DNA from: Azolla caroliniana
Taxonomy: Eukaryota; Plantae; Polypodiophyta
NCBI GenBank assembly: GCA_043228905.1
Contig: JBHGNT010000003.1
Span: forward strand, 10,974,001 to 11,038,000
Reading direction: 5' to 3'
Length of the DNA stretch: 64,000 bases
The notes beneath the pieces are model-generated. The model searched no databases. It was given only the letters and a program-made list of their open reading frames with translations, and was not told the DNA's origin. Made by a program: the position numbers and the translations under genes. Positions 1 through 59,689 of this stretch are shown here, one piece after another; positions within the stretch are counted from its first letter, which is position 1; every line of letters starts with the position of its first letter.

Positions 1-1275
1 AATGCTCGTACGCCTTCATGAGGAGGAGAGGTGCATGGGCAAGCCCGAACGCTCCCTCGTCACGAGACGACCGCACGTACGAGGAAGACACAAACACACG
101 CACAAAATGCTCGTATGCCTTTATGAGGAGGAGAGGTGCTGTTACGGGCATGACCATTTAATATCCTGTGGTGAGAATTTACTGTAGTATTCTATACACG
201 TGGATAAGTGTGAGGGTTAAACGAGAGTGTAAAGAAGGGGAGGATTACTTTTAATCCTCGGGATTGAGACAACCCATTAGGTCAAGTGTGAACTAGCTTG
301 GGGGCCTTGGGTATCGCTATAAATAAGAGGCCTAGCTACCCTCATTTGATCATCTTTTGACTACATCGAGACTCTTCTCTTGTGGTGGGTCAACTCTTGT
401 AGCGAGCGCGCCAGCACCAGGTACGACTCAACGCCACGGTGGTGGTATGGGATGCCGATCAAGGCTCGAGTCCGTCTCGATCCCTTCGCTCGGGGGTGGT
501 CGGGTGGATCGGCACCCATCTTTCTCTTTCTCCTTTCTATCTATCATTACTTTATCCTTATCTTAAGCTTACTTTAGTACCTAAATCTCTAATAGATGCA
601 TGGGCAAGCCCGAAACGGTCCCTCGTCACAAGACGACCGAACGTACGAGGAAGACATAAACACACACACAAATGCTCGTACGTCTTTATGAGGAGGAGAG
701 GTGCATGGGCATGCCCAAAACACTCCCTCGTCACAAGACGACCGAACGTACAAGGAAGACACAAACACACACACAAATGCTCGTACGCCTTTATGAGGAG
801 GAGAGGTGCATGGGCAAGCTCGAAACGGTCCCTCGTCACAAGACGGCCGAACGTACAAGGAAGACACAAACACAACACGAATGGTCGTACGTCTTTGTGA
901 GGAGGAGAGGTGCATGGGCACGCTCGAAACGGTCCCTCGTCACAAGACGACCGAACGTACGAGGAAGACATAAACACACACACAAATGCTCGTACGTCTT
1001 TATGAGGAGGAGAGGTGCATGGGCAGGCCCAAAACACTCCCTCGTCACAAGACGGCCGAACGTACAAGGAAGACACAAACACACACACAAATGCTCGTAC
1101 GCCTTTATGAGGAGGAGAGGTGCATTGGCAAGCTCGAAACGGTCCCTCGTCACAAGACGGCCGAACGTACAAGGAAGACACAAACACAACACGAATGGTC
1201 GTACGTCTTTGTGAGGAGGAGAGGTGCATGGGCACGCCCGAAACGGTCCCTCGTCACAAGACGGCCGAACGTACA
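1..1275. repeat. ~105-bp tandem repeat array with ~314-bp trimeric higher-order structure, interrupted by a solo LTR
   Basis: The unit 'gaggaggagaggtgcatgggc...ccctcgtcacaagacg...aacgtac...ggaagacacaaacac' recurs at about 600, 705, 810, 914, 1019, 1124 and 1228. Variants repeat every third unit. The array runs off the left edge. Confidence 0.93.
140..594 (+). mobile_element. Solo LTR of the Gypsy-A chromovirus family
   Basis: Starts tgttacgggcatgacc and ends ctctaata. Matches the LTRs at 11279-11734, 38822-39266 and 60021-60475. TSD ggtgc/gatgc; the repeat unit resumes in register. Confidence 0.92.
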
Positions 1276-2711
1276 AGAAAGACACGAACAAAGAAAGAAG
1301 GAGAGAAAGAAACACGAATGATATCGACCAAAGAGATAAATACGTGTTTAATTCCAACGCAAGAGGATCCTTTATAAAATAGGGTTTGATTCCAATGGAA
1401 ACTTATAGTTAACCACAAGCTCAATCAAAACATAAATACTAAATGCCCTTCGAGACAAAGGCAAATCCGAACACGGCGAAGATGAACACAGGAGCACCAC
1501 CAAAATGCCAATCCCAACGAACCACGACGACCCGAACGGCAAGCACACGAGCTCGCAACGTCGAACCAACGAAGCTTGAGCTCACGAGCACTTCGAGTGC
1601 CAACGCGAAGAAGATGAGCACGTGGCGATGGGGGGATGAAGGGGTATGAGATGAAGAGAAATGGTGAATAAGAAGATGAAGAGCTCCGAACGAAAATTGG
1701 CGATAGTCTCCTCCTCCCAAAACGTCCTCCCCGAAATGAGCCCCCCTCAGCCTCATTTTATAGGAAAAAAGGAAGGGGGGTCGCCAATTTTGTCTTCAAT
1801 GAAAAATGAATAAATTTTTTCCTTAAATGACGTTGCACTGTAAAACTAGATTTGAAGCGTTCATGTCTAGCTAGAAGTCAATGTGACTATCCAGTAGCCC
1901 ATTAACTCTCTCTTGTATAATATATAATTCTATCTTTATAAATTCATAGCCTGTCCTCCCTCTACCTTTTATCTCTCCTCTCTTTTACTTTTTGCACGAG
2001 CTTCTATACCTCCTTTCCACCCTTTGTTTTCCCTTTTATTTTGTATATGCACAATTAATCGCCTTTGTGTGCACACACATTGCACATGCACATTTTGACC
2101 CCCCCCTTTCGCCGGTTTTTCCCTCTCTCGAGCACGCCACATCACGACAGCGGTTCCGCCTCATGATCCGAATGTAGTGACAGATTTTTCGCCACAGCGT
2201 ATTGGACGAGCTTTAAAATGAGTATTTAGTCAACATTGTTCACATGAGCTTTTGGATTGGAGGTTGTCATGCTAATAAATTCTAGGTACCGAGTCTCTAA
2301 GTACAAGTATAATGTTGAGCGGCAAGCTTAACTGGAGCCGGATCGGCTGGATAAGCCTGAGCCGGTGAGCAAGATGGATCGGTAAGCCGGTGAGCAATAG
2401 AGCCAGTGAGTTGGGGAGTGGGATAGCTGGATCCAATCGGTAACCGGAAGCCTAGTATTAGTTTAGACTACTAGGCAGTTATAGTCTCGTAGTAAGTGTC
2501 AGATGCTCGTGTGAGCATTGAAGTATGCAGTACTTCTGTCAGTTCCACGAGGACTTGTATAAATAGTGCTACTGAGCACAGTTGTAAGAGAGAGAGTGTT
2601 TATATTGTTTTGAATATAGCTTTTACGTTTGGCTCTCTCTGTCTCTCCCGTGTATTCTATGTATTCTCTACTTTCTCTGTTTTCTAACGCTTCCGCAAGT
2701 AATCGTTTACA

Positions 2712-11734: not shown

Positions 11735-13535
11735 TTTGCTCCTGTAGCTAATATGACGACAGTTCGTGTGGTGTTGGCGGTTGCTGCAACAAGAGGGTGG
11801 CATCTTCACCAGATGGATGTGAAGAATGCGTTTCTTTAGGGTGATCTTGAAGAAGAAGTCTTTATGACTCCGCCCCTCGGTTTTCAATCGGAGATGAACA
11901 AGTCGGCGGTATGCCGACTAAAGAAGTCGTTGTACGGCCTGAAGCAAGCCCCTCGAGCTTGGAATGCGAAGATCACGCACCAGTTGCACAAGATGGGGGT
12001 TTGCGGCCTCCAAGTCTGACTCTTCGTTGTTCATCCGGCAAGGCTCAACCGGTCGGGTATGTATCCTTTTGTATGTTGATGATTTAGTCATCACCGGACC
12101 GGGTCTTCCAGAAGTCAACCGCGTCAAGTCCCAGTTGTCAGACGCATTTGAGATGAAGGACCTGGGGGACCTTCATTATTTTCTTGGGATCGAGGTGATC
12201 CGAACCCCCAATGGCATATTGCTCTCACAATGACATTACGTCTTGAATATGCTGTACAAGTTCGGCATGACAGAATGCCGACCTGTCTCCACACCCTTGG
12301 ACCGGAACCAGAAGCTTCGTCCCAACTCTGGACCGGCCTGCAACGAGAAACGGTTCCGAAAAATTGTTGGAAGCCTTATTTACTTGACTATCACGCGACC
12401 CGACATCAGCTATCCGGTCGGAATGATAAGTCAGTTCATGCAGAAGCCGACCGTGGAGCACCTTCAGTGCACGTAGTGGATACTGCGATATCTAAGCGGC
12501 ACAAAGGACCGGTGTTACGGGTATGACCATTTAATATCCCATGGTGAGAATTTACCGTAGTATTCTATGCACGTGGATAAATGAGGGTAGCTAGGCCTCT
12601 TATTTATAGCGATACTCAAGGTCCCCAGGCAAGTTCACACTTGACCTAATGGGTTGTCTCAATCCCGAGGATTTAAAGTAATCCTCCCCTTCTTTACAGT
12701 CTCGTTTAACCCTCACACTTGTCCACGTGTATAGAATACTACGGTAAATTCTCACCACGAGATATTAAATGGTCATACCCGTAACAACCAGGGCTTGTTA
12801 TACCGGCGCAGTATACCCGAAGAGCTGGTCGGTTACACAGATGCCGACTGGGTAGGCGATGCATCAGATCGCCGATCAACCTCCGGTTACATGTTTTCCC
12901 TAGGTAGCGTGGTTGTTGCATGGAGCAGCAAAAAGCAGCCAACAGTTGCTCTATCGAGCACTGAGGCTGAGTATCGAGGCGCTACCATTGCCACCTGTGA
13001 AGCCATTTGGCTTCGACGACTACGGCAAGACCTACAGATCGAGGTACCGACCCCGGTTCTGGTCTACTGCAACAACATAAGCAACATGCAACTCGCCAAG
13101 AACCCCGTATTCCATGCTCGCACAAAGCACATAGAAGTGCACTATCACTTCGTGCGTGAGCGTGTCCTGAGCGGTGAGGTCGAACTTCGGTATGTTCACA
13201 CGGATCGGCAAGTTGCCGACATCTTCACCAAACCACTCGGATCGGACAAGTTGCAGCACTTCACCGAAATGCTTGGTGTTCAGCATCTCGACGTGCCACA
13301 CTTGAGCGGGAGAATGGGCAAAGACACCAGAACGGCAAAGGCAAAGAGACTGCCGATTGGGCCGGTGAGGGAAGAACCGACGAAGGGAGAGTCAAGAAGA
13401 AGAAAGGAGCTGAGTCGACAAGGGAAGTCGACACGTCTGAACAAGTCGGAACAAGTGGCGGCGGCGGCAGAGTCAAGAAGGACAGAGCCGAACAAAGGAA
13501 GAAGGCCAAGACCCGGACATGGTCCAATGTGGTGA
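11735..13535 (+). pseudogene. Copia-A1 RT and RNase H, interrupted at 12513-12786
   Basis: Motifs [22 protein letters not shown] and [14 protein letters not shown]. Confidence 0.92.
12513..12786. mobile_element. 274-bp foldback element built from two inverted Gypsy-A U3 ends
   Basis: Starts tgttacgggtatgacc and ends ggtcatacccgtaaca, giving ~68-bp terminal inverted repeats. TSD accgg/accag. Confidence 0.9.
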
Positions 13536-41849: not shown

Positions 41850-42692
41850 TGTCATGCCTTTTGGCTCCGGATCGTTGCGTGAGTTGGGTGGGAACCATTG
41901 GGGTTTTGGACTAGGAGGAAATAAATTCTAAAGCAATTAAGAATGTGAAATATATTGTAAGAAAGAAAGATATGAAAAACTCGTGAATCCCATGAGTATA
42001 GTGTATTAGTGAGTACTCAAATTAAGAGAGAAAAATAGTTAGCAAATTCGTGGATCCCATGATTATATTATATTAATCAACCCTTGTAAAATAATCAACA
42101 ACCTCTATACATCTTTCTCTCTTCCTTATATAGTGTTGGAAGAGTCTAAGTTTATCACATGCAAGCATCATGCTTTTCCTATCTTTAGTTTTCATGCACA
42201 GTGCATGTGCATGATTAGCTTTCTATCTCATCTTTTCTTTTAACTCGAGTGTCTATGCATGAATAACTTTTTGTACCATGCATGTCTAGAAATTTTACAT
42301 GGGATAAAGTTTAGTATAACTTTAAAATTCATAATACGCTAGTATAATGATAAGGCTTAACATTATTAACATGGAGGTGCAAGGTTCGAATCTTGCCCTA
42401 TGCATGTAATATATAATTTTATACTTTCTTCTATTTACAAATATGTCTCTTCATCTGGTGAGAGACTCTCGCCGACCTTCTTCATCCGGCTCTTGCCGGT
42501 TCTGCTTCATCCGGTTCTCGCCGGTTCTCTTTATCCGGTTCTTACCGGATCCTCCTTACCGGCCCTCTTCGTCCGTTTCTCACCGACTCTCACCGGCCTT
42601 CTTCATACGGCTCTTGCCGGGTCTCCTCCATATCCTATCCGGAGAAACAAAAAATGTAATTTTTCACGTAGTGTGCGAATTACACTACGACA
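41850..42692 (-). mobile_element. Solo LTR (type D) of the tRNA-Trp-primed gypsy family, inserted in Copia-A2 gag
   Basis: TGTC...GACA ends and 4-bp TSD tcgt. Removing it restores gag MDEDEMVQIYL. Homologous to 57546-58389. Confidence 0.9.
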
Positions 42693-44255: not shown

Positions 44256-47020
44256 TGTCGTGAAGAAAACCAGCCCTAAGAGGAATCAAAGAATTAAAGG
44301 CGTGAACCCGCCCTTGCACGAGTGTGCGCGAATTGATACATTGTACATAACTAGGAATAGGATGGCTGATGTAAACATACTAGGTATTAGATATTTGCTA
44401 ATTAGGAAATCAATGTGTATCTCTGTCTGAAGGGATAGAGAATAAGGTTAGCGTGTTTGATGTAACGGCCTCCTCGGAGACCTATAAAAGGGAAGGGGAA
44501 TAGAAGAAGGGTATCACGTTTTGGGGAGAGAGAGGACGAGGTGCTGTCAGACTGGGAGCTGAGCTCTCTCGTCCTCTACAAGGTTGCAACCGTTGTAATT
44601 ATCACTGTTATTGTAATAGAATTTCTTGTTTTCTGCTACCTGTGCTATCTGTGTTATCTATGTTCAGAGAGCCTCTTCACCCATCTCTCTTGAGTATGCT
44701 CCTTGATTGAGTCGTTATACATGTTGGTGGTTCAATCAGCCGGCAAGCGTTGCCGGTTGCTGATAGGTCTAGCAAACCTCACACTGTCCCACTTCTCACA
44801 CCCTCTTCTCTCTCTTGCTCCTCGGTTCAAGGCCCTCGTGGTCCCGCCTTCTTCTACACGCACGCGCGTAATATCGCGACATCTTTGGTGAACCCGACGT
44901 GAAGAAGGCGGCAGAGGAGTGAAGATGAGGGAATCGGAGCTCGCCGAAGCCATGGCAACAACAGTCGATCGAATAGTAAATGCTCGCGAGGGCACGGGCG
45001 CCCTCGACAGGACCATTGAAGCAATTGTCAGCACGATAGGCCGATTCGGTCGGAAGGATGCCACGAGCTATTTGGTAGCCTACCGAGCCGAGATGGTGAT
45101 GAGAGACATTCCGAAGGATAGGCGTCTAACCGGGCATCCACGTAAAGGTGCTCGAGGTACATGCTGGATGCCGGACCTGGGGAGAATTTGAAGCACGGCT
45201 TCTCGAGAGGTACGGGCTTGATGACGCGCTTCGGTTATCGAAGCGGGACTTCATGGAGTGGGTGGAAACCCCCGGGAGGGGGAGGAATGCATTGGTGCTC
45301 CTCCGGGAGTTCGAAGAATGCTTCACACGGCTCTCAATGCTCGACAGGACCGTGCTGTACACGAGTCATGTCATGTTGTTTGTAAAATCGGTGGATGTGC
45401 GGGATAGGGGCCAGGTGGGTCTCCTGCTAGAGACAGATGATGGGCTGACGACCGACTGGGCCGTGGTCAAAGGGGTCTGCAACCGCTTCCACAAACGGCG
45501 AGACTTGGGCGATGAGAAGTCGTTGATGACGGGACCCACCCCGACAAGAAAGTTCGACGAGCCTTTGCCGGCACGAAGGGAGGAAACCCGGGATTGGATT
45601 GAAACTGGCCCAACGTCGACCGGAGCAGTCAAGGGCCCATCCAGGGGAGCGGCTCTTGAGGAGTTGACACAAATGGTGCGCGACCTGCAGATCGCGTAGG
45701 CTCGGAGAGACAGTAGAGGGCAACCACGCCACTAAAGGCCACCGGCTAGACAAGAGTGTATGTGGTGCGACGGGGTCGGGCACAACCGGCGAGACTATGT
45801 GGAGTTTGCTGAAGCCCTCAGGGGTAATGTGGTGTTCCTATGGAACAGATGGGTGGACACTGGTGATACTCGGAGAGAGGTGGAGACGAATTTTGGGCGT
45901 GGCGGGATGAAGCGGCTAATGGAAGAAGCGGAGGCGTGCCATGTGGAGGTTGTCCATTATTCAGCATCGGTCGGGATCCAGGTGGGAGGTGACGAAGACC
46001 GGAAAACGAAGAACTCTGGCTTCTGACCCTCAGTGCTAGAAGGCATCTCTGGCGCACGACTAGAGAGGGAGGAAGCGATTCGCGCAGAGTGGTGGGTCCG
46101 GGAGGTCACTGGGTGGGACGATCCGGTTGAGGAGAAGATCGGTCTCGTGGAAGTGGCGTGCCAAAACTATGAGGTTCTGGGGAAGGCAGGAGGTCCCGGG
46201 CCCTCACAATGGTACGAGACTCGGCTTGGGCAGAAGCAAAACGGTGCCGGTAACCTCGACGCACCGAATAGAACGAAGCAGACTGGCTAAGCACCGAGAT
46301 TGAAAGGACGACAGACTTGCAGAAGGTTCCAAAAGAACGGATCCTCGACAGCAAGGTCGAGCTATCTTTGCGGGAAGTGCTTGGGATCGCGAAGAAGGAA
46401 TTCCACGATTCCATCGTGGACTTAGTGAAGCGGAAACGGCTCTCTACAGAACCGGAACCGGAGAAGCCGGTCGAGGTGCGGACGACGCACCTGGAGGATG
46501 CAACCCTAGAAGACGAGTTGGCGGATAGCCACTACTCGAGGTTACATTGGGCCAGGGCCACCGCAGAAACCCCTGTCCGGATCGGGGACGTGCAGGAGCC
46601 GGTGGTTGCATTCATAGACCATGGTTCGGAGATAAACCTGATGTCCATGGACTTCTACAGGAAAAGGAAGTGGCCAATCAACACCAAGCACGGGTGGAAG
46701 ATACGCGCGGCGACGTGCGCAACGGAGGAGTTGCATGGTGCGTGCCCGAATGTACGCATAAAGATTGGCGACGTCAAGATAGATCAACACTTCTTTGTGC
46801 AGGAGACATCCTCGCACCTGGTGATACTCGGCGAGCCGTACATTCCGGCGACACATAAAGAGCCAAGATGGACGACACTCTGTCCAATTCCTTACCGTGC
46901 GACCGAACCATGAGCGGAACCGGGAAACCCTCGGCAACAGCGAACGAGGGGGTTTTAGAGAGGGCTATCAAGGCGTGGGGCTGCGATAGTCCGGACACCC
47001 CGGAGGAACCCCACACCTGT
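44256..47020 (+). mobile_element. 3'-truncated tRNA-Trp-primed gypsy (LTR, PBS, gag-protease pseudogene)
   Basis: LTR 44256-44881 (tgtcg...gcgaca). PBS tggtgaacccgacgtgaa at 44886-44903. gag-PR homologous to 50687-52747 (IDHGSEINL). Confidence 0.87.
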
Positions 47021-47023
47021 ACC

Positions 47024-47547
47024 TGTTACCCGTAAGAATATACGGGGAGGCATAAGGGTATGTGTAAAGTAAATGAGTATGTGAGGATGAGTATGTATGA
47101 GCACATGCACAATTATGTGCATGTGACAAGAATGTAACAGTCATATTATTAATCGTTACACTATGTACTATATAAACCCCTAATGGGGCATGTAATGGAA
47201 TATACATTTTTCCCCTCTCATTTTGTGTCACTTTCAATTTGTCTTTCTCTCTAGCTCTCTCACTATCCTAGAATGGCTTCACCCCCCACCCCAACAACAC
47301 TTTTGGCATGGTTGAATGGCCGACCCTCCCTTGAGAGGAAGTCTATCCCTCACTCGCCCTCTCCAACACAAATGTCTCTCTCCATCTTTGTGTGTTCGTT
47401 TGTGTCTGTGTCAGAGAGTATCGTCGTTTGTCTGTGTAATCTCTATGTTGAGAGCCTTCTTGTGTTCTCCTTTCTCTACCTTGTTCAGAGGAACCTATTC
47501 AGTCCTCATGCAAATTCATTCATAAGCACACCACAGGGAATGTTACA
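47024..47547 (+). mobile_element. Putative LTR of an unidentified family
   Basis: tgttac...gttaca ends, ctatataaacccc TATA, followed by a degenerate gtgtatca. No partner LTR or TSD found. Confidence 0.35.
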
Positions 47548-49170
47548 GTGTATCATCCATGATGTTGCCTGCTCCTCCTCGGCCAAACCTTACATGAGAC
47601 GCAAGTATGATGGTGAATATTGTGAAAGTGTTTTTAGAATTCAAGGTATTGAAGTCTACAAGAATATAAGGTATGGTGCGTTCACATCTGGAGGGCAAGA
47701 TCACGAGCTAAGGTCTTGAGGATAAGTCAAACAAAAAGCAAGACACGTGGAGAAAAGTAAAAGAAGAAAAAAACGGGCACCAAAACGTAGTTTGCAACGA
47801 ACGCTCATAACTCAATCATTTGGAAGGAAAATATAATGTGAAAATATGGGTTGGAAAGCTTGTGAAGGTAGCTATCCATAGCTTTTTAAATATCTAAAGT
47901 TAGAGCTTGGAAGAGGGAGATATGACGATTTGAAGATCGTTGTGTCATAGATAAGAATAGGACTCGATGAAAACTCTAAAAAAAGCATAAAAAAGAAAGC
48001 AAGGGAAGCTTATCCAGTGGAAGAGAACTTTATATAAAGGAAGAAGAATAAGGTGGTGTGAAGGAGTCTCTTTGTTGTGATTTTTTTCCAATTCATGTAG
48101 TGTTGTTTGAATTCCTATCAATAGATATTTGTAGTTGTATCTTCTTTCTATTTTCTTTATTTCATGATCAATAGATCTTTGTAGTTTTAGATTTATATAT
48201 CTTCTTTATCTTTTCTTTCTATCATCACTCCTTCAAATATGATCGGGAGAGGCTGGGCCTTTGTCCTTTCCTCTTCCTTTTCCCTTGTTGCTGCTACTCT
48301 CTTGGAGAGCCCAAGTGCAGCGACTTGTCAGCAGACAAGTTTGGCATCTACAAGAAACCCTCAGATGCTAGCTCACTACGCGTTATCTGGGCATGAACTT
48401 CTTCTTGATGGAAACTTCCCCGTTTGCACGGATGATTCTTCCTCTACTTTTTTCCTTTTCCTGATCTTCTCTTTCTCCATCTCCATCTCTTCTCGATCTC
48501 CGCTGCAAGAGCCTAGTTTTGTTGAGGGAAGTAGGAAGAAAGTGCAACAATAGTAGAAAGATGGGAGAAGAAGATGGTGAGAGTAAGAAACAGAGATGAG
48601 GAGGCAGGGATCGAGGAAGAAAACGGAGACGTCTCCCAACGCTCATAATCAGGTAGAGGATGGTCTTGATCTTCTTCATAGCACGCGGGCACACTTTGAG
48701 AATGAAGTCATATACTCAGTGAGCTACCTTCTGGTGAGATCCCCTTTGCGAAGCACAAAGAGGCGGCCTCAGTCCAGCGACCATAGTTGTTGCCACCGGG
48801 GGAATGCTTGCTGCACTCATATGCCTATTGGGGAGGCAGACAGAATGGAATATAATCATGGGAGTGATAACGCAGCTGCATCCCTTTCCTGCAGATCATC
48901 AGGCTCAATCTTATATATGTATGATCCTGTTGACGCCTCATCCACGGTGTCTCACGAGTGTTGTAGCATCTGCCAAGAAGAAGTCCAAGAAGAAGTCCAA
49001 GAAGACGTCGTCTTCATCCCTAGAGATTTGGACGGCAATCTTCTAAGGGATGCTACAGCCATCAACAACAAGGACATGATCAGCCTAGCCCTATCACAAG
49101 GTCCTTTGCAGACAATTTGTTGAGCTTATCCAACCTGAAAACTGGATCTGGCTCAAACAACCTTGTACAG

Positions 49171-49607
49171 AAGAGCGAAAAGCTCAAGGTCAACAAAGCC
49201 ATCGAGAAAGGGAACATGGATGGAGATCGGATCTATGCCGAGAATGCGATTCGTATGAGAAACAAGCAGTTGAATTATCACGCCTCGATGCAATGATATC
49301 TCGCCTCCATACACAGAGCAATATGCAAACCATAAACTAATCCATGGATTAGTTTGAACATATGTTTGTCAATATGGAGGTCAAGGCTGAGTTTGTTGAG
49401 CTGGCCATGGTTGGAAGCACATCTCTTTCTAACCCTGAAGATCAAGTTAACTGTCTTATGAAACAAGTTGTGGATGATTATGGCCTTGAGGTTTCTGTTG
49501 GTCTTCCTCAACCTGCCGCTGCGTCTCATGTTGTAGCAGAAGAAGATAACGTTTCTGTTATTGAAGATGATCTGAGTCAGCGCCTTCCAGAGTGGAAGAG
49601 TCGGTGA
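49171..49607 (+). pseudogene. CHMP1: CHMP1/VPS46 (ESCRT-III) gene fragment with stops and two internal deletions
   Basis: [27 protein letters not shown]...SRLDA...[10 protein letters not shown]...GSTSLS...[14 protein letters not shown]...EDDLSQRL matches plant CHMP1 as I recall it. Confidence 0.88.
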
Positions 49608-50686
49608 AGGAAAATTCACACACTCATACACAGGGTTTGTACGTCTCTAGACCTTCTATCGTTGCCGCCGCCGCCATTGCCACTACCGCCGCAATCATTT
49701 CCATCTCCACGAGTGCCGCTGCCGCCATCATTGCTGATGCCGCCGCACCATCATTGCCGCCACTGCCGCAATCATTACCGCCTCCACAGTGCCATCATCG
49801 CAGCCACACCGCCACCATCGCCGTCACCGTCGTGATCGTTGTTTCACTAGATCACGCAAGCCGGCAACACGCGAACAAACGAGGAATCCATCCCGACACC
49901 AATTCTGGATACTGCCAAACAAGAGGAACCTCATGTCATGTCACCAGAAATTACCACTACGGTGAACAGCACGGAACGGCGAGCGAAGTTCCCCGCAATA
50001 CCAGACAACGAAACCACCGACCAAGAGGAACCCCATCCACCGGCGCTGTCGTGACGATTTTTTGCTACTGTGTGAAACCGAGTGAGACGAATAAACCAAG
50101 GATGTGCAACATTGCACATGCACTTAGCAAATAAACCTAGCCTAGTGGCACTTGAGTTCATACACAGGGGTGCAAGCAAGATTTGAACCTTGCACCTCTA
50201 AGATACAAGATGATTGCCTTACCATTAGGACAACTATCATATAGTGTAGATTCTATGTATTTCCTTTTCATATACAAATTATAGACGAAACAACCATAGA
50301 AAACCATGTGCACAAAACCATGGTTTGTGCATGACATAAGCAAAACCGTGTGCACAAAACCATGGTTTTAGCCCATGGTTTTGTGCATGTCACGAGCATG
50401 GAAAGACCTATAAAAGCCTCTAGTTGGGCTTGTGTAAGGGGGGCTCAATATGTGATATCACCAACACCATTATCATCAATATAATTGTCTTTATCTTCTT
50501 CATTATTTTCTACTTCTCAAGTGTACAAGCTTTCTTCTTCTCAAGTGAACAAATTCCGTCTAATCTTACATTGATCGTCATCTCTTCGATAATTCCGCGA
50601 ACGTCCTCCCCAGTCCAAGACCCCGGTGGTCGCTCGAGTAGCACACGCACGCGCGAATCTTCGCGACATCAGTTGGTGAACCCGAC

Positions 50687-52747
50687 GTGAAGACGGGTGG
50701 CAAGGAGATGGAGGCTCAACAAGCTAACAATATGATGGCGATGTTCGAACGGATGCTTCAAGAACAACGCACGATGTCGGAGATTTCGGCATCAGTAGAG
50801 CGGCTCGTGCAACGCAACGGGCAATTTAATGGTAAGGATGTGTCGCGATATTTGCAGGACTACAAGGCGGAGATGCTCCGGTGCCGGGCTTCGGAAGGAC
50901 TGCAAGTGACATCCTTTAACCGGGTGGCGACCGACGGGCTTCAAGGGAGTATCCACGGGTTGCAACAACAAAATCCGACGTGGGAAGCATTCGAAGAGGC
51001 GTTAAAGACCACGTTTGCCATCGAGGACTCCTCCAAGGCAACGCGGAGGGGATTCGAGGATTGGGTGGAAACGTCAGGTAAGGGGTTGAAGGTCCTCGAA
51101 GTATTTTCGACATTCGAAAGTCGGTTCGGGAGGTTGTCCGCGAGAGATCAAACTATTCTTGCACCGGACAAAGTCATCATGTTTTTGCGAGCTGTGGACG
51201 TCCGGGACCGGAAAGATCTCGGAGTGCTTCTTGAGGACACGACCACCGAAAGCGGCCTCACCGAAACATGGGAAAGCGTGCGGGATATCGTCGCGCGGTA
51301 CACGAAGAGGGGGCAATGGCTTGCCAACGAAGAAAAGAGGGTTTCGGAACCGATTCCGAAACCGAGAACGGGACTGGAAGACCATCAACCGAGGGCTCGG
51401 GAGATTACGGCCGAGAAGGGAGTCGACGCGTCTACGGTGGAGCAGCTGCTGAAGGAGATGGAGAATCTAAAGATCGCGATGGTGAAGAAGTCGGATGACC
51501 GCCCCACAAGCTCCAAATATACGGATCGACGGTGCATATGGTGCGATAGCGCCGAACACGATCGGAGGGATTGCGACGACCATAAGGAGGCGCTACGACG
51601 GGATCTCATCTACTACGAGGGAAACCGGATTCATTCGATGGACTCTCGGAAGCCACTCCGACCGAACTTCCGGAAAGGCGGCATGAAGAAGGTGCTCGAG
51701 GAGGAGTTAGCGGCAAGAAGCAACTATGCGACAACCGCGGGAATATGTGTCGGGGAGTCATCGGGAGCGAAGGCGTCTTTCTGGCCGGAGGTGCTAGGAA
51801 ACACCGAGAAAACCGACTCCAACGATATCCGAAACACCGCGGAAGGCGTCCGGGAAGCTACGGGATGGGAGTGCCCTGTCGACAAGAATAGCATATACGC
51901 CCTGTGTCAATTACATGAGGTGTACGTGGACGAGAAACGATGGCGCACGGAGGATGCGGCCGGACCATCGAAGATACCGGAAAACTGGAACTCCGGAGGT
52001 AAGGGAAAAGAAAAGGCGACTCCGGCATTCAAGCTCGCCTCGGACATAGAACAACAAACCGACTTGAAAAGAGTGTTCGAGGAAAGAATCTTGGATAGCC
52101 GGGTCGATTTTTCGCTGCGGGAACTACTCGGAATAGCGAAGAAGGAGTTTCACGATCTTCTCGTGGATCTCGTGAAAAGGAAGAGACAAAGTACGGAGGA
52201 AAATGCTCCAAGGGTGAATGCAAATACCGTTTCAATGAACGACACCGAAGTGGAAGGCGAAATTCCGAACTCCCACTATACAAGGCCACACTGGGCACGT
52301 GCGACTACGGAGACTCCGGTCCGAATCGGCAACATCAAAGAACCCGTGCTAGCATTGATTGATCACGGATCGGAGATCAACTTGATGTCCAAGGAGTTCT
52401 ACCGAAAGGGGAAGTGGCCTATAAACACCAACCATGGATGGAAGATTCGGGCAGCCACGAAAACGACAGAAGACCTATTTGCGGCTTGTCCGGATGTGAC
52501 GGTAAAGATCGGGGATGTCGAAATTGACCAAAATTTCTTTGTGCAGGATGAGGTTTCACATTCTGTCATCCTCGGCCAACCCTTTATCACGGCTTCACGG
52601 ATGGAGACGAAGGTGCTCGATAGTGGTGCGGCTTTTGCGCGAATTCGGAGCCAAAACGGAGGGAAATCCGTCCAATTCCTAACGGTGCCGGCAAATCACG
52701 AAAGGAACAAGAGGGAACTCTTGCCCCAAGTGAGAATGGATTTTTAA
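50687..52747 (+). CDS. gag: Gag-protease
   Basis: 686-aa open ORF with CCHC knuckle CIWCDSAEHDRRDC and protease-like LIDHGSEIN...VILGQPF. Confidence 0.88.
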   Translation: MKTGGKEMEAQQANNMMAMFERMLQEQRTMSEISASVERLVQRNGQFNGKDVSRYLQDYKAEMLRCRASEGLQVTSFNRVATDGLQGSIHGLQQQNPTWEAFEEALKTTFAIEDSSKATRRGFEDWVETSGKGLKVLEVFSTFESRFGRLSARDQTILAPDKVIMFLRAVDVRDRKDLGVLLEDTTTESGLTETWESVRDIVARYTKRGQWLANEEKRVSEPIPKPRTGLEDHQPRAREITAEKGVDASTVEQLLKEMENLKIAMVKKSDDRPTSSKYTDRRCIWCDSAEHDRRDCDDHKEALRRDLIYYEGNRIHSMDSRKPLRPNFRKGGMKKVLEEELAARSNYATTAGICVGESSGAKASFWPEVLGNTEKTDSNDIRNTAEGVREATGWECPVDKNSIYALCQLHEVYVDEKRWRTEDAAGPSKIPENWNSGGKGKEKATPAFKLASDIEQQTDLKRVFEERILDSRVDFSLRELLGIAKKEFHDLLVDLVKRKRQSTEENAPRVNANTVSMNDTEVEGEIPNSHYTRPHWARATTETPVRIGNIKEPVLALIDHGSEINLMSKEFYRKGKWPINTNHGWKIRAATKTTEDLFAACPDVTVKIGDVEIDQNFFVQDEVSHSVILGQPFITASRMETKVLDSGAAFARIRSQNGGKSVQFLTVPANHERNKRELLPQVRMDF

Positions 52748-52801
52748 AGCGGACTGTTGCGGAGTGGGGAAGTGATAGTCCGAGAAGCCCTGATACCCCA
52801 C
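52738..52801 (+). promoter_or_regulatory. Putative -1 ribosomal frameshift signal (slippery GGATTTT plus H-type pseudoknot)
   Basis: G GAT TTT TAA ends gag-PR. Stem 52750-52760 pairs with 52772-52782; loop gtgggg pairs with ccccac at 52796-52801. Confidence 0.72.
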
Positions 52802-55800
52802 ACGGGAAGAAAACTCTCGGAGCAAAACAAGTACGAATCGGGCCGGATGGGGCATCTACGTACACGGCCGTAACCGGAGGAATGAAGAAACAATACCGAC
52901 AAGTGGAGGATAAGTTACGGTCGGCATCAATAATAAAAGAAGACGAAGAAATCGTGGGAGTAATCGAGGAAGTGTTCTATGGGAATACACTACAACGGCT
53001 TGAAGAGCTTGCGGAAGATAAAAGCCAAGGGAACCGGGTAGTCCCGGTGGAATCGGTCGAGATGTACGAGATCGTTGCGAAAATGGGGCCGGATGCGCTC
53101 CGCAAAGAAGAAGCAATGGTAAGTACGAAATACAAGACCGTGGAGAAGAAGGTAAAACCGGCCGCGGGACCACTACCCGCCGATAGCGAACAAAAGAGGA
53201 AAGAAGTCTCGGGAGATCCGACACTTCGGAAGACCGTGGATATCGGACATGCCTTCACAGATGAGACCCGGAAGAAACTTCGGATCGGTGGAGGTGGGTT
53301 CCTCTTACAAGAAGAAGAAAAACGGTTTCGAGAGATGTTGGAGCAACACGGCAAAGCATTCGCGTTCACATCGAGGGAGATCGGATGCATTGATCCAAAG
53401 ATAGTGGAGCCGATGGTGATTTTCACGATTGATCATGTACCGTGGAACCTGAAGCCGATTCCGGTGCCACGGGCGCATATTCCGAAAGTCATCGACTTAC
53501 TCAAGGAGAAGGTGGCGATGGGGATTCTAGAGCCATCAAGTGCTCCGTACTCAAATCGATGGTTTACGGTTCCGAAGAAGAATGGGTCACTCCGATTCAT
53601 CCAAGACTTGCAACCGGTGAACAAGGTCACGATCCGGAACTCGGGAGTCGGTCCGATAGTGGACGAATTCGCGGAAGCTTTTGCCGGACGTGCGATATAC
53701 TCCATCGGGGACCTATACTCGGGGTATGACCAATTCCAACTAGCCGTGGAGAGCCGAGACATCACTACCATGCGGACACCGATAGGACTAGTTCGAATGT
53801 GCACACTACCACAAGGAGCGACAAACTCGGTTGCACATATGATGAACGCGATGAACAAGGTGCTTCGAGATTGCATCCCGGAGATAACGATGCCGTTTCT
53901 AGATGACATTCCGATGAAAGGATGCGCGGTGGAAGAAAAAGATGAGACTATGGATGATCGGGGATGCCGAAAGTTCGTGGTCGACCATATTCATGATTGC
54001 GAGAAAGTGTTGCGAAAGCTAGAAGATGTGCACCTAACACTTTCCGGGGAGAAATCGGCATTCGGGCAAGAAGAAATATTGGTGGTTGGACATCTATGTG
54101 GACCCTACGGCCGAAGACCGTCACCAACAAAGATCGATGCGATTCAAGCTATGAAGGAAGTATGTGAGTCAACGTCGGAAGTCCGAAGGTTTCTAGGTGC
54201 GTGTGCATTCTATCACATATGGATTCCGCACTATGCACATATAGCGGACCCGCTCTATCACTTGTTGCGGAAAGGTAAGAAATTCGAGTGGAAACCGGAA
54301 CACACTAAAGCCATGAGGAAGCTCAAGAAGACACTATGGAGGGCGGAATCACTTAAGAAGCCAAGCTACGAGCGGCCAATCATAGTAACGGTTGATACAA
54401 GTCCAACCGGTATCGGGTGGGTCATCAATCAAGCCGACTCGGATGGTTCGCGGTATCCGATTCGATTTGGAGCAAAGGTCCTCAACGAAAGGCAACGCGG
54501 ATATGCACAAATCAAAAGAGAATTGTGGGGAGTCGTGTCGGCGATAAAATCGGATCGGGATTATTTGATCGGAGCTGAAGTGGTGATCGAGACGGATTGT
54601 CTTCCGATACTCGGGATGATGCGGTGTTGTACGATACCGGATGTGGCTATGCTAAGGTGGATTGCATATGTCAAGTCACTTAATCCGGAGGTTTGACACA
54701 TCTCGGGGAAGGACAACGCGGTAGCGGACATGTTATCGAGGGCGCGGTTTGAAGACGACATAACCGAATCAGATAATGAAGAAGTTTCCGAAGACTACTT
54801 CACGTCAGAACACATATGCCGAGTGAACGTGATCCGAGAATTCCGGGAAGAAGAATACGAGGGGGAAACCTTGATGATCGGGAAGATGCTACAAGAGGTC
54901 GAGGATTCAACCAATGATAAAGAAAGGAGAGCCGAGATCCGAAGGAAGAAGAGGCAAGTCCAAAAGTTCTTCTTGGAAAACGGTTTAATATGGAGGACGC
55001 CGAAAAGACCGGATGGGATACCACTTCGAGTAGTCGGGACGAAAGAGCAACGAAACCGGATAATGTCCGAGTTCCACGAATCCGATTGGGCTGGACATCG
55101 AGGAACATGGGCAACTTTTGTGAAAATCAAGCAAAGATATTGGTGGAAGAACATGTATAAAGATGTCGCGGAGTTCACAGAAAGCTGCGAGAAATGTCAA
55201 GTCTACTCCGGGGTCCGACACCGAGATGAGCTGCATCCGACATTCTCACCGACAATCAACTTCAAGTGGATGGTCGACATTGTAGCTATGCCGACCGGGA
55301 TTGGACAAAAGAAATACTTGGTGTTAGCTCGAGAAGATCTCACAAACCAAGTTGAAGGTCGAGCGCTTCGGAGGAAAACGTGTGCCGCGGTGTGCCAATT
55401 TCTTTTGGAAGAAGTGTTTTGTAGGTACGGCTGCGTAGGACAAGTGATTGCGGACCGGGGAGAACTCGACTCGGACAAAGCTAGGGGATTCTTCGCCAAA
55501 CATGGAGTTCGGTTAACGTTGACAACGGCCTACAATCCGGAGGCCAACGGGAAGATCGAACGAGGACATAGTCCGATCGTGAAAGCACTTGCGAAGGCAT
55601 GCGACGGAAGGGTGAAGGATTGGCCACAAATGCTTCCGTATGCACTATGGGCGGATCGGACGACGCATAGCTCCGTGACCGGTTACATGCCGGCAGAACT
55701 CATGACCGGACAAGCACCGGTAATGCCAACGGAAACCGCAATCGCGACATGGACAATACTACCGTGGAAGGAAGAGATGAGCCGGGAAGAACTACTAGCG

Positions 55801-56337
55801 GTCCGGATACGACAACTGGAGGGAAGACCGAAAGATGTAGCGGAAGCGTCACGCCGACAACAAGAAGCACGGTTCCGGAACAAAAGCCGGTTCGACACAA
55901 AGCACCGACTACGACCGAGGAGGATTGAAGAAGGAGATTGGGTGATCGTCTATGATAGTAGCTTGGACCATCAACATACAACGATGCGGAAATTCGCGAA
56001 AAGGTGGTTCGGGCCGTACGAGGTTCGGAAGGTCTTCGACAACGGGACGTACCGACTGTCCGAGTTGGATGGAACAATACTACGAGTGCCTATAGCCGGG
56101 AAGCGGGTAAAGATTTTCAAGAAGCGGACCGACGACAAACCTTATGTGATCCAAGTCGAGGCCGACAACGAGGAGCAATCGGACGAAGACCACAATGATG
56201 CGGGAAGCGAAGAAAGTGGATTACAACTCATAGTCGACATAAGGGGAGAATCGGAGGAAGCTTCGGATGAAGACGGATACGAAGAATCAAGAACTTCGGC
56301 ACATACCGGAGGATGTGCGGGTTTGGAGGGGGCGAGA
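52741..56337 (+). CDS. pol: Pol (RT-RNase H-integrase) in the -1 frame; one premature TGA at 54694-54696; no chromodomain
   Basis: Frame open from 52741. RT FLDDI, RH TVDTSPTG, INT HESDWAGH...CEKC and DDE core, WFGPY. Confidence 0.88.
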
Positions 56338-56345
56338 CCAAATGA

Positions 56346-56967
56346 TGTCGCGAAGATTCGCGCGTGCGTGTGCTACTCGAGCGACCACCGGGGTCTTGGA
56401 CTGGGGAGGACGTTCGCGGAATTATCGAAGAGATGACGATCAATGTAAGATTAGACGGAATTTGTTCACTTGAGAAGAAGAAAGCTTGTACACTTGAGAA
56501 GTAGAAAATAATGAAGAAGATAAAGACAATTATATTGATGATAATGGTGTTGGTGATATCACATATTGAGCCCCCCTTACACAAGCCCAACTAGAGGCTT
56601 TTATAGGTCTTTCCATGCTCGTGACATGCACAAAACCATGGGCTAAAACCATGGTTTTGTGCACACGGTTTTGCTTATGTCATGCACAAACCATGGTTTT
56701 GTGCACATGGTTTTCTATGGTTGTTTCGTCTATAATTTGTATATGAAAAGGAAATACATAGAATCTACACTATATGATAGTTGTCCTAATGGTAAGGCAA
56801 TCATCTTGTATCTTAGAGGTGCAAGGTTCAAATCTTGCTTGCACCCCTGTGTATGAACTCAAGTGCCACTAGGCTAGGTTTATTTGCTAAGTGCATGTGC
56901 AATGTTGCACATCCTTGGTTTATTCGTCTCACTCGGTTTCACACAGTAGCAAAAAATCGTCACGACA
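56346..56967 (-). repeat. Inverted, apparently identical copy of LTR-C (622 bp)
   Basis: Reverse complement of 50047-50668. Spurious ORFs 50158-50355 and 56659-56856 translate identically. Confidence 0.95.
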
Positions 56968-57506
56968 TCCACCCCCACCAAACCCGCACATCCTCCGGTA
57001 TGTGCCGAGAAAGGTGAAGAGGTGAGATCTTTGGCAACGGTGATCAACCGAGTTCCTCTGCACGCTCGTCGACTTCGTCTTCCACTTCGAGTATGCGCAA
57101 TCTTTCCAACCGAACCACCGTAGCCACCCGATCCACCATATCCGGCGCTCACACCTTCTTCCCCGATTGGTTGTAGTAGATCTACCGAACGATGTCGTCG
57201 ATACGACCGCTCTTCCTTCGTCCACCGCGCGTGTCCTTCGATTGGACTCCTGGCCACTCCTCACGCTCACCGTCTTCAACTGGGTATTGTAGATCGTTCG
57301 TGTCGATCTCCGATTAGGCCGGGATGCCGACCCGAACGAAGGAAGATCCACATGGGAGCCGATCGACCGGGGCCGACCCGGCCGAAACCTAATTCGGCGA
57401 AAATCGATCGGACGATTCCGATCCAAAAGGGGGCCGACCCAGCCAGAATCAATCGGTCGAGCCCGACTCGGGGAAATGTGAATGCAGACGAAGGCCAACG
57501 AAGCCA

Positions 57507-57541
57507 AGAAGGTTGCGTGTTCGTTCACGTCGGGTTCACCA
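57507..57541 (-). promoter_or_regulatory. Extended PBS complementary to the 3' half of tRNA-Trp
   Basis: The + strand reads agaaggttgcgtgttcg-ttcacgtcgggttcacca, the plant tRNA-Trp 3' half with CCA and lacking A58. Confidence 0.8.
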
Positions 57542-58184
57542 ACTGTGTCGCGCCTTTCGGCTCCGGATCGTTGCGTGAGTCGGGTGGGAACCACAGAGGT
57601 CTTGGACTAGGAGAAAGAAGTTCGTGAGATAGAGATTAATTATGAGTAAATAGCAAAGAGAAAGATAAGAAACTCGTGAATCACACGAGTATACTATATT
57701 AATTGGTACTTAGGGTTTTAAGAGAGAAGTAGATGTATAAATCGTGAATCCCACGAATAATTTTTGTATTGATTAATTCTTAATCCAAATAATCAACAAC
57801 CCTTTACATATTTCTCTCCTCCTTATATAAGGAAGGAAGAGCTAAGCATGGCTTCATGCTTTTTTATTTTTTACAAAAAGTGTTCATGTCCACTAAATGT
57901 GCATGTGATGCTTTTTTATTTCCTAAGTATAGGGCTCATGCACGCTAGATGTGCATGAGTTATTTTTAGTGTCTCGTCTTTTTCATATATTAAAAAAAAT
58001 ACACGATTTACCTTTTAATAAAGGTATGCATAAATAAAGGTCTTATACACATTAAATCTATATTTAAAACACTTAAGATAATTTAATGTAATGGTAAGGT
58101 TGGGGTTTGTCAACGTGGAGGTGCAGAGTTCGAATCACGCCTTGCGCAGTAGTGAGTATTTCCTTTTTTTACATTTATGTCTCT

Positions 58185-58310
58185 ATGCCGTTTTTCCTCC
58201 TTGCCGGTATGCCGTTTTCTTCCTTGCCGGTATGCCGTTTTCCTCCTTGCCGGTATGCCGTTTTTCCGGTATGCCGTTTTTCCTCCTTGCCGGTATGCCG
58301 TTTTCTTCCG
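58185..58310. repeat. ~23-bp tandem repeat (ccggtatgccgtttttcctccttg) in LTR-D U3
   Basis: About five copies, one of them shortened. Confidence 0.85.
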
Positions 58311-59051
58311 GTTCTCACCGAGCACTCCATTCTCTATCCGGAGGGACAAAAATATAATTTCCACATAGTGTGCAACCTACACTACGACAGCGCATACACT
58401 TAAGGCCAACTGCACGGAGAATGTTCCGGACCAAGAGGAACCGCAACACCACTCCCCAGAGCGTACAACGATGGCCAACATCACGGAGGAAGTGACGGAC
58501 GAACCAGAGCCGCGACCTACCGCAAGTCTGCGGGCCGACATCACGGAGGAAGTGACGGACGAACCAGAGCCACGACCTACCGCAAGCCTGCGGACGGTTG
58601 AACCAAACCCCCTAGCCCAAGAAGAGCCCACAGAACCCGGACTGCCCACATAGGATGACTACGACACCATGCGAAGCCCTCCGGACCAAGCAGGGGAACC
58701 ACACAACGACACGCCTACAAGCCCTACGCCGTCCCCGGACACAAACACCGTAGCAGAACCAAACATCAGGGCCATTTTGGATGAAGATTAAAGGGATGGG
58801 TCCGACATGCCATGGCATTGTCCCACCGGCGTGCCAGGTGTTGTCCGCCAGAATAGTAATCGACGGACAAGAGCGTAGTAACATGGAATAGAGTAATATT
58901 ATAACGCATGTAACGGTTCACGCAGGAAGCGTGAATGGCTAAAAGATCCTGCGTATATAAAGGGCAGAAAACCTCTAATAGAGGTAGCGTGTAATTTTAA
59001 ATGTAAAAGGCGTATCTTAATAGAGTTCTATCTTCTCTGATATCTATGCAT

Positions 59052-59689
59052 TGTCGTGCCTTTCGACGTCAGATCGTTTGCGTGAGTCAGGTGGGAACCG
59101 CTGGGGTTTTGGACTAGGAGAACGAAGAATATGAGATAATGTTAGTTAGGAAGAGATTGTAAGAAGAAAATATGAAACTCGTGAATCCCACGAGTATAAT
59201 GTATTAATGGGTAATTAGATTGTAAGAGAGAATTAGATGGTAAAATCGTGAATCCCACGAATATTTTGTATTAATCAATCCTTCTAAAAAAAGTCAACAA
59301 CCCTATACATCTTTCTCTCTTCCTTATATAGTGTTGGAAGAGTCCAAGTTTATCAAATGCAAGCATCATCCTTTTCCTAACTTTAGTTTTCATGCACACT
59401 ACATGTGCATGATTAGCTTTCTATCCCATCTTTTCGTTTAACTCGAGTGTGTATGCATGAATAACTTTTTGTACCATGCATGTCTAGAAATTTTACATGG
59501 GATAAAGTTTAGTATAACTTTAAAATTCATAATACGCTAGTATAATGATAAGGCTTAACATTATTAACATGGAGGTGCAAGGTTCGAATCCTGCCCTATG
59601 CACGTAATAAATATTTTTAATATTTTATTTTTATTTATTATATGTACTCTAAATTGGATATACTATAGTGTGTGATTCACACTACGACA
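59052..59689 (-). mobile_element. Solo LTR-D with non-matching flanks
   Basis: tgtcg...cgaca ends. Flanks gcat and acgt belong to different sequences. Confidence 0.85.

What the first reader, a model, noticed from the sequence alone, without database searches (positions are those of the whole stretch)
57507..57541. Genomic fossil of reverse transcriptase skipping m1A58: a 35-nt tRNA-Trp copy lacking exactly A58
Seen: sister elements have the standard 18-nt PBS (44886, 50674). Here the match continues 17 nt further through the T-arm and variable loop, but the T-loop reads TTCG-TT instead of TTCGATT. Known: m1A58 normally stops plus-strand strong-stop synthesis at 18 nt, and RT read-through at m1A leaves mismatches or deletions. 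Inference: read-through of the modified primer was fixed in DNA and may have caused the aberrant transfer behind the composite. Alternatively it is a heritable extended PBS that bulges A58. The tRNA sequence is recalled, not searched.
Basis: partly seen in the sequence, partly recalled or inferred. Interest (0 to 1): 0.75.

Follow-up and report, generated by a model that had tools for sequence, protein, structure and literature searches.

The report
Retrotransposon fossil of skipped tRNA base
One copy of a plant jumping gene carries an over-long DNA copy of the tRNA that starts its replication, missing exactly the base that such tRNAs usually methylate, likely because its reverse transcriptase jumped that base instead of stopping and then landed on the wrong template.

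Summary
Confirmed. On the minus strand, 57541-57507 matches plant tRNA-Trp(CCA) positions 76-41 at 35/35 bases with one gap, uniquely at A58. All 135 tRNA-gene matches fetched carry A58. The element works like Phygy Ty3/gypsy (tRNA-Trp primer site, 4-bp NCGN target duplication). In four public runs the family norm is an 18-nt primer site followed by the gag leader, so the extension is not a family trait. The last 5 nt of the extension are shared with the parent of the downstream sequence, a microhomology junction. Best reading: plus-strand strong-stop DNA read through m1A58 by skipping it, could not use the normal site, and transferred by microhomology into another template. It sits in an 8.3-kb tail-to-tail composite of two LTR families with one GCGC duplication, likely from swapped plus-strand transfers between co-packaged RNAs (less certain). 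Over-extension and m1A 'jumps' are known in vitro; I found no paper on a genomic A58-deletion copy. The scan noted tRNA over-copying in two other genomes and a similar inverted composite in this one. A clean, likely dead-end accident that records a tRNA modification in DNA.

The parts
57524..57541 (-). Standard 18-nt primer-binding site, complement of tRNA-Trp(CCA) 76-59
   Evidence: identical to sites at 44886 and 50674
57512..57523 (-). Read-through extension, complement of tRNA-Trp 57-46; A58 absent between 57523 and 57524
57507..57511 (-). 5-nt microhomology shared by tRNA 45-41 and the parent of segment X; likely transfer point
   Evidence: parent contigs match up to 57511 and then diverge
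57542..57545 (-). 4-nt linker between LTR-C end (CA) and the primer site
57546..58389 (-). LTR-C (844 bp, TG...CA), 5' LTR of the right arm; outer end is a U3 end
   Evidence: solo relatives at 41850-42692 and 59052-59689
56968..57506 (-). Segment X (539 bp): 3' internal region of a related element ending in a G-rich polypurine tract; no Pfam match
56346..56967 (-). LTR-B copy 2, inverted, identical to copy 1 over the LTR
   Evidence: 630/631 over LTR plus stub; the difference lies in the linker, 50672
56337..56345 (-). 9-nt stub: 5-nt linker plus first 4 nt of the primer site, joined without homology to the polypurine tract end of the left arm
50692..56336 (+). gag-protease and RT-RNaseH-integrase of a Phygy-like Ty3/gypsy element (one frame change near 52.7 kb, one in-frame stop at 54694-54696), ending in a polypurine tract normally followed by LTR-C
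50674..50691 (+). Standard 18-nt tRNA-Trp primer site of the left arm
50047..50668 (+). LTR-B copy 1, 5' LTR of the left arm; outer end is a U3 end
50043..50046 (.). Left copy of 4-bp target duplication GCGC (NCGN)
58390..58393 (.). Right copy of 4-bp target duplication GCGC

Best explanation
The 35 bases are a DNA copy of the 3' half of host tRNA-Trp lacking A58, likely made once when a Phygy-like retrotransposon reverse transcriptase, copying its own primer during plus-strand strong-stop synthesis, skipped the methylated A58 instead of stopping there. Shown: the tRNA match, the unique gap at 58, the 18-nt family norm, the 5-nt microhomology at the junction and the composite's anatomy. Inferred: m1A58 in this host; the over-long 3' tail could not pair at the normal primer site, so it annealed by 5 nt to an internal site of another minus strand and deleted everything between. 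Inferred with less certainty (about 0.55): that minus strand belonged to a co-packaged LTR-B-family RNA; the LTR-B strong-stop DNA in turn used the free primer site of the LTR-C genome; the two hybrids were joined end to end at their 3' ends and integrated as one 8.3-kb unit through two U3 ends. Neither arm has matching direct LTRs, so the product is likely unable to replicate.
For: 35/35 match with the only zero-mismatch gap at 58; A58 in 135 of 135 tRNA-gene matches. Orientation and place (tRNA complement, contiguous with the primer site, on the element's sense strand) are those of plus strong-stop over-extension (PMC13191261 section 10; PMC8599865 passages). Deletions ('jumps') at m1A are a measured RT signature (PMC7144921 passages). 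m1A58 signature is ubiquitous in Arabidopsis nuclear tRNAs (PMC11658184 passages). Family norm: contigs leave the stretch at 57523/57524 into the gag leader in all four runs (27, 15, 13 and 5 contigs in the rows shown); depth over the extension 3122/1224/971/0 against 321119/56367/53147/4832 over the primer site, with A put in behind 57523 at depth 3061/1204/957/0. Parent of X diverges behind 57511 (7, 6 and 2 contigs in X2, X8, X1; X7 records stop at 57510-57511). Random indel unlikely: relatives align without frame break over about 3.4 kb of pol and 2 kb of gag, and the LTR-B copies are identical over 622 bp. Composite: GCGC on both outer ends, same length and motif as Phygy duplications; an exact 14-mer on both flanks; the left arm's tract is followed by LTR-C in 8 contigs of X1; X1 unitig depths pol 365, LTR-C 805, LTR-B 310, X 74-87 fit pol belonging with LTR-C (a hint only). 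Intermolecular plus-strand transfer is proposed for HIV proviruses with unequal LTRs (PMC9278108 passages).
Against: One copy in one assembly; no listed contig bridges the extension-X junction (32 of 1267 records shown), so the junction is not independently confirmed, and the best run holds only 0.61 of the words. m1A58 was not measured in this host. Jumps are enzyme-dependent; wild-type HIV RT and TGIRT lacked distinct jumps. A 4-bp NCGN match at two ends arises by chance about 1 in 16 to 30 (my estimate), and left-versus-right flank BLAST (34.0 bits) barely beat the best of 79 control tiles (32.6). The solo LTR at 59052-59689 has unequal 4-bp flanks. A 37-bp inverted repeat flanks LTR-B copy 2, so a later flip of that LTR could have changed which family each arm seems to belong to; short contigs cannot exclude it. 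Depth sums are not copy numbers.
Confidence: 0.78

Rival explanations
1. Read-through happened on an unmethylated primer tRNA; A58 was copied, and the single missing base is a later mutation or a sequencing or assembly error.
For: Unmodified tRNA is copied past 58 in vitro and in TRMT6 mutants. The junction is seen in one assembly only.
Against: The gap falls on exactly the modified base, in a non-homopolymer context. No frameshifting indel in about 5.4 kb of neighbouring coding sequence bounds such errors below about 6 in 10,000 per base (rule of three, my arithmetic).
Confidence: 0.07
2. The extension is a heritable, functional long primer site of a (non-autonomous) subfamily that pairs with the T-arm while bulging m1A58.
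For: Extended primer pairing and over-extension sequences exist in lentiviruses. An earlier, unchecked note reports about 500 inherited over-copies in another genome (e1-10321918). A few percent of extension depth is not accounted for by A-carrying contigs.
Against: Both neighbours of the extension continue into other sequence in the family: primer site into gag leader, X into its own upstream region. The arm has two unrelated LTRs (only 79- and 35-bp weak matches), so it likely cannot complete first-strand transfer.
Confidence: 0.04
3. The A58 skip is real, but the composite arose separately: a normal LTR-B element and an internally deleted LTR-C element came together by nested insertion, deletion or inversion after integration, or by mis-assembly; the transfer was within one family.
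For: Flipping LTR-B copy 2 between the 37-bp inverted repeats (56296-56332 and 56972-57008) gives a complete direct-repeat element. The 4-bp duplication alone is weak evidence.
Against: The central junction lies exactly at a polypurine-tract/U3 boundary on one side and 4 nt into the primer site on the other: both are reverse-transcription landmarks. One duplication flanks both outer ends. X1 depths pair pol with LTR-C.
Confidence: 0.1
4. A free tRNA was captured by a minus-strand template switch (hairpin-induced tRNA-mediated recombination type) or is a chance tRNA pseudogene fragment.
For: tRNA capture occurs in HIV and MLV (described second-hand in PMC12220202); the parent of X seems to hold an inverted repeat near the junction (X1 joint 57323/57511).
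Against: The piece is the primer tRNA itself, contiguous and in register with the primer site, and complementary on the sense strand; a minus-strand switch onto a tRNA would leave it in the opposite orientation (inference). No tRNA gene lies in the window.
Confidence: 0.01

Closest known systems
Over-extended plus-strand strong-stop DNA of HIV-1 (PMC13191261 section 10 and passages; PMC8599865 passages; PMC11251516 passages)
   Same: Copying of the primer tRNA past position 58; such products fail normal transfer when they run beyond about position 54.
   Different: There it is seen in vitro or in cells lacking the methylase and is described as non-integrating; here the copy skips 58, runs to 45-41, was rescued by microhomology and is fixed in a plant genome.
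Deletions by plus-strand transfer error, Pulsinelli and Temin 1991 (not held; title seen in the reference list of PMC9278108; content recalled)
   Same: Recalled: tRNA sequence beyond the primer site joined to a downstream site by short homology, deleting what lies between.
   Different: Single-round avian retroviral vector; here a natural Ty3/gypsy copy, with a deletion at 58, and likely a transfer to another family's template.
m1A reverse-transcription signature with 'jumps' (PMC7144921 passages; PMC4787781 passages)
   Same: Single-base deletion exactly at an m1A site.
   Different: Measured for commercial enzymes in vitro; here likely made in vivo by a natural retrotransposon enzyme.
Phygy clade, non-chromovirus Ty3/gypsy (PMC6317226 passages, section 9, one supplement table row)
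   Same: tRNA-Trp primer site, 4-bp NCGN duplication, no chromodomain, coding region fills the interior.
   Different: Phygy was defined from Physcomitrella by phylogeny, which I did not test; named homologues here are from Riccia and Adiantum; this copy is a two-family composite.
Template-switch complex LTR insertions (PMC1950507 abstract and section 4); HIV proviruses with asymmetric LTRs (PMC9278108 passages)
   Same: Two co-packaged RNAs fused during reverse transcription and integrated with one target duplication; unequal LTRs from intermolecular plus-strand transfer.
   Different: Those complexes are head-to-tail with near-identical outer LTRs; this one is tail-to-tail with outer LTRs of two families and two U3 ends.

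Membership tests
Over-extended strong-stop fossil (m1A58 read-through) | Extension contiguous and in register with the primer site, complementary to the same primer tRNA | tested here: met
Over-extended strong-stop fossil (m1A58 read-through) | Error at position 58 and tRNA genes intact there | tested here: met
   gap only at 58; A in 135 of 135 gene matches; host-run contigs carry A
Over-extended strong-stop fossil (m1A58 read-through) | Short homology at the aberrant transfer point | tested here: met
   5 nt, 57507-57511
Over-extended strong-stop fossil (m1A58 read-through) | Host tRNA-Trp carries m1A58 | not testable with these tools
   general for Arabidopsis nuclear tRNAs and retroviral primers including tRNA-Trp; not measured for this host
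Heritable extended primer site | Many copies share the extension | tested here: not met
   family contigs leave at 57523/57524 into the gag leader; extension depth 0-2% and mostly with A58; no whole genome held
Ty3/gypsy | gag, protease, RT, RNase H, integrase in that order | tested here: met
   RVT_1, RT_RNaseH, Integrase_H2C2, rve in order; protease motif read from the translation, no Pfam protease hit
Phygy | tRNA-Trp primer site (81% of members) | tested here: met
Phygy | 4-bp NCGN target duplication | tested here: met
   GCGC for the composite, ACGA for the solo LTR at 41850-42692; unequal flanks at the solo LTR 59052-59689
Phygy | No chromodomain; coding region spans nearly the whole interior | tested here: met
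   no chromodomain hit; ORFs cover 50709-56336
Phygy | Length 7.7-10.0 kb | tested here: inconclusive
   two LTR-C plus this interior would give about 7.4 kb; no intact copy in the window
Phygy | Placement in the Phygy clade by RT/RH/INT phylogeny | not tested
   no REXdb reference sequences held; homologues named from Riccia and Adiantum, 52-73% identity
Template-switch complex (Sabot and Schulman) | One target duplication around a two-element fusion | tested here: met
Template-switch complex (Sabot and Schulman) | Head-to-tail layout with near-identical outer LTRs | tested here: not met
   arms are inverted; outer LTRs are of different families

The most novel reading that the evidence does not exclude
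Plant genomes keep a readable record of tRNA modifications written by their own retrotransposon reverse transcriptases: m1A58 skips like this one, a hypervariable base right after the primer site, and longer copies with errors at position 37. Read-through of m1A58 would also be a trigger for reciprocal plus-strand swaps between co-packaged LTR families, giving inverted two-family units that integrate through two U3 ends: a route for inter-family recombination.
Probability: 0.35. Interest if true: 0.7.

Novelty: new variant of a known kind. Interest (0 to 1): 0.5.

Why it matters
That m1A58 ends plus-strand strong-stop synthesis rests on retroviral work; this is natural evidence for the same rule, and for its failure by base skipping, in a seed-free-plant Ty3/gypsy lineage. 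If such fossils are common, assemblies alone could map tRNA modifications and each enzyme's error signature. It also gives a concrete mechanism for internally deleted and two-family hybrid elements. As a single, likely inert copy, its own biological effect is probably nil.

Tried and rejected
No whole genome is held, so copies could not be counted directly. ARAGORN found no tRNA gene in the window; Rfam gave only a chance miRNA hit, E 1.7. Viral contigs: 0 matches for the extended pattern and 0 for the 18-nt site. Genome contigs: 11 matches of the 18-mer, none with the extension, by context chance hits. tblastn against phages: no match. No RNA holder was listed among the runs. The parent's upstream motif has no good match in the window (one 4-mismatch hit). 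Segment X has no Pfam match and no homologue in the window except the 37-bp tract motif. I first read the minus-strand ORF 56929-57606 and segment X as a gag start; rejected, because X ends in a polypurine tract and the ORF has no family. Earlier notes on a tract-less, tRNA-Arg-primed lineage in this genome do not apply: both arms here have a G-rich tract. Pulsinelli and Temin 1991, Konstantinova 2006 and Colicelli and Goff 1986 are not held. Sequence look-up in earlier findings and a second word look-up returned nothing.

Full report
Observation. The window is a plant-like region packed with LTR retrotransposons; no whole genome is held. On the minus strand, an LTR ending at 57546 is followed by a 4-nt linker and a primer-binding site from 57541. 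Against gene L003 the window matches positions 73 to 41 plus CCA exactly, with 58 missing; only that gap gives zero mismatches, and the match ends at 40. Sister sites at 44886 and 50674 stop at 18 nt (2-5 of 17 matches to the extension, against 17 of 17).

Accident or family trait. Twenty public runs hold part of the stretch, the best 0.61 of its words. I laid four of them, all short contigs. Contigs that match the primer site leave the stretch at 57523 or 57524 and continue into the same gag leader that follows the site at 50674 (27, 15, 13 and 5 contigs in the rows shown; 47 rows hidden), including X1 records that also cover the LTR-C end. Depth over the extension is 3122, 1224, 971 and 0, against 321119, 56367, 53147 and 4832 over the primer site, and contigs with an A put in behind 57523 have depth 3061, 1204, 957 and 0 (5, 6, 6, 0 contigs). 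These look like host tRNA-Trp genes or related copies. So the family uses an 18-nt site and the host's tRNA-like copies keep A58. The small remainder of depth could hide one contig with the gap; no listed record bridges the junction (32 of 1267 shown).

The junction. Sequence downstream of the extension (segment X, 57506-56968) exists in other copies, which match up to 57511 and then continue into their own upstream sequence. Thus 57507-57511 belongs to both the tRNA (45-41) and the parent: a 5-nt microhomology, about 1 in 1000 by chance; the same 5-mer occurs 3 times in 5.6 kb of the coding interior. Twelve bases are certainly tRNA-derived.

Is the gap a modification signature? Relatives align to the neighbouring pol over about 3.4 kb and to gag over about 2 kb without frame break, and the two LTR-B copies are identical over 622 bp, so random or assembly indels are rarer than about 6 in 10,000 per base here (my arithmetic). 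Deletions at m1A are a measured signature of some reverse transcriptases, though wild-type HIV RT and TGIRT lacked distinct jumps (PMC7144921, passages; PMC4787781, passages, covers mismatch and arrest). m1A58 is the normal strong-stop, and products that run beyond about 54 fail normal transfer (PMC13191261, section 10 and passages; PMC8599865, passages; PMC11251516, passages). Its signature is ubiquitous in Arabidopsis nuclear tRNAs (PMC11658184, passages); it was not measured in this host.

The composite. 50047-58389 reads: LTR-B, 18-nt site, gag-pol, polypurine tract; then, inverted, a 9-nt stub (linker plus 4 nt of primer site), LTR-B, a second tract, X, the extended site, LTR-C. Both outer ends are LTR starts and both are flanked by GCGC. 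An exact 14-mer occurs on both flanks and, within 2 mismatches on the plus strand, only once more, at 49917; flank BLAST was only marginally above 79 controls. In X1, 8 contigs continue from 56336 into an LTR-C start and 2 continue from 56337 into the primer site, so the central joint is blunt and falls on two reverse-transcription landmarks. X1 unitig depths (pol 365, LTR-C 805, LTR-B 310, X 74-87) suggest that pol belongs with LTR-C and X with LTR-B; this is a hint, not a count. The simplest model is a swap of plus-strand strong-stop DNAs between two co-packaged families that share the primer: the over-long LTR-C product landed by microhomology in the LTR-B template, the LTR-B product used the LTR-C genome's primer site and stopped at the tract boundary, the two were joined at their 3' ends, and integrase used two U3 ends. 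A later flip of LTR-B copy 2 between 37-bp inverted repeats would give the same picture with a within-family transfer; I cannot exclude it.

Family. Domains are Ty3/gypsy without chromodomain; named homologues come from Riccia and Adiantum. Phygy is described with tRNA-Trp sites (81%), 4-bp NCGN duplications (100%) and 7.7-10 kb length (PMC6317226, passages, section 9, one supplement row). It works like Phygy; clade membership was not tested by a tree.

Novelty. Each step has a precedent: over-extension (above), plus-strand-transfer deletions (Pulsinelli and Temin 1991: not held, title seen, content recalled), intermolecular transfer (PMC9278108, passages; PMC12789967, passages, reports the second transfer as mostly intramolecular), fused insertions (PMC1950507, abstract and section 4; head-to-tail, unlike this one), and tRNA capture (PMC12220202, abstract, parts 2-3 of 7 and passages). 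Searches found no paper on a genomic LTR element with a primer copy deleted at 58; the library lacks most subscription journals. The scan's unchecked notes report over-copied primers in two other genomes and another inverted two-family unit in this genome. Verdict: real, well supported, a new variant of a known error class, likely a dead end; interest 0.5.

Noticed in passing
window 57523 / 50692 / 44904 (base right after the 18-nt primer site): This base, opposite tRNA position 58, varies in the family: G in the two window sisters, A in the majority loose-end cells, C in a minority of contigs, while the next bases are mostly conserved. It may be an error hot spot at m1A58; C would be a skip plus one base.
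   Followed up: no
loose ends before window 57507 in runs X2 and X7: Three contigs per run continue tRNA-like to about position 31 with T at G37 in a mixed consensus (agreement 0.71). Could be longer read-through copies with an m1G37 misread, or tRNA pseudogenes.
   Followed up: no
window 57323 / 57511: An X1 contig joins these places on opposite strands: the parent of X seems to hold an inverted repeat near the transfer point, a possible pause site.
   Followed up: no
window 52624-52747: gag-protease and pol overlap in different frames near a T/A-rich run; several relatives' pol proteins start at about the same place, suggesting a natural programmed frameshift.
   Followed up: partly
window 56296-56332 and 56972-57008: A 37-bp motif next to the polypurine tract is shared by LTR-B and LTR-C families and by others in the runs, although their LTRs are unrelated over most of their length; it holds a small hairpin.
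   Followed up: partly
window 44300-50046 and 58394-59050: Host element A (tRNA-Trp site at 44886, gag-protease similar to the left arm, no pol hit) into which the composite inserted.
   Followed up: partly
window 41850-42692 and 59052-59689: Two solo LTR-C copies; the first has a perfect ACGA duplication inside a copia element, the second unequal flanks.
   Followed up: partly
window 594-1290: Tandem array of about 105-bp units, also at the window start.
   Followed up: no
window 12513-12786: Short inverted piece of an LTR family (12513-12588 against 12709-12786) beside its direct copy; another small fold-back junction.
   Followed up: no
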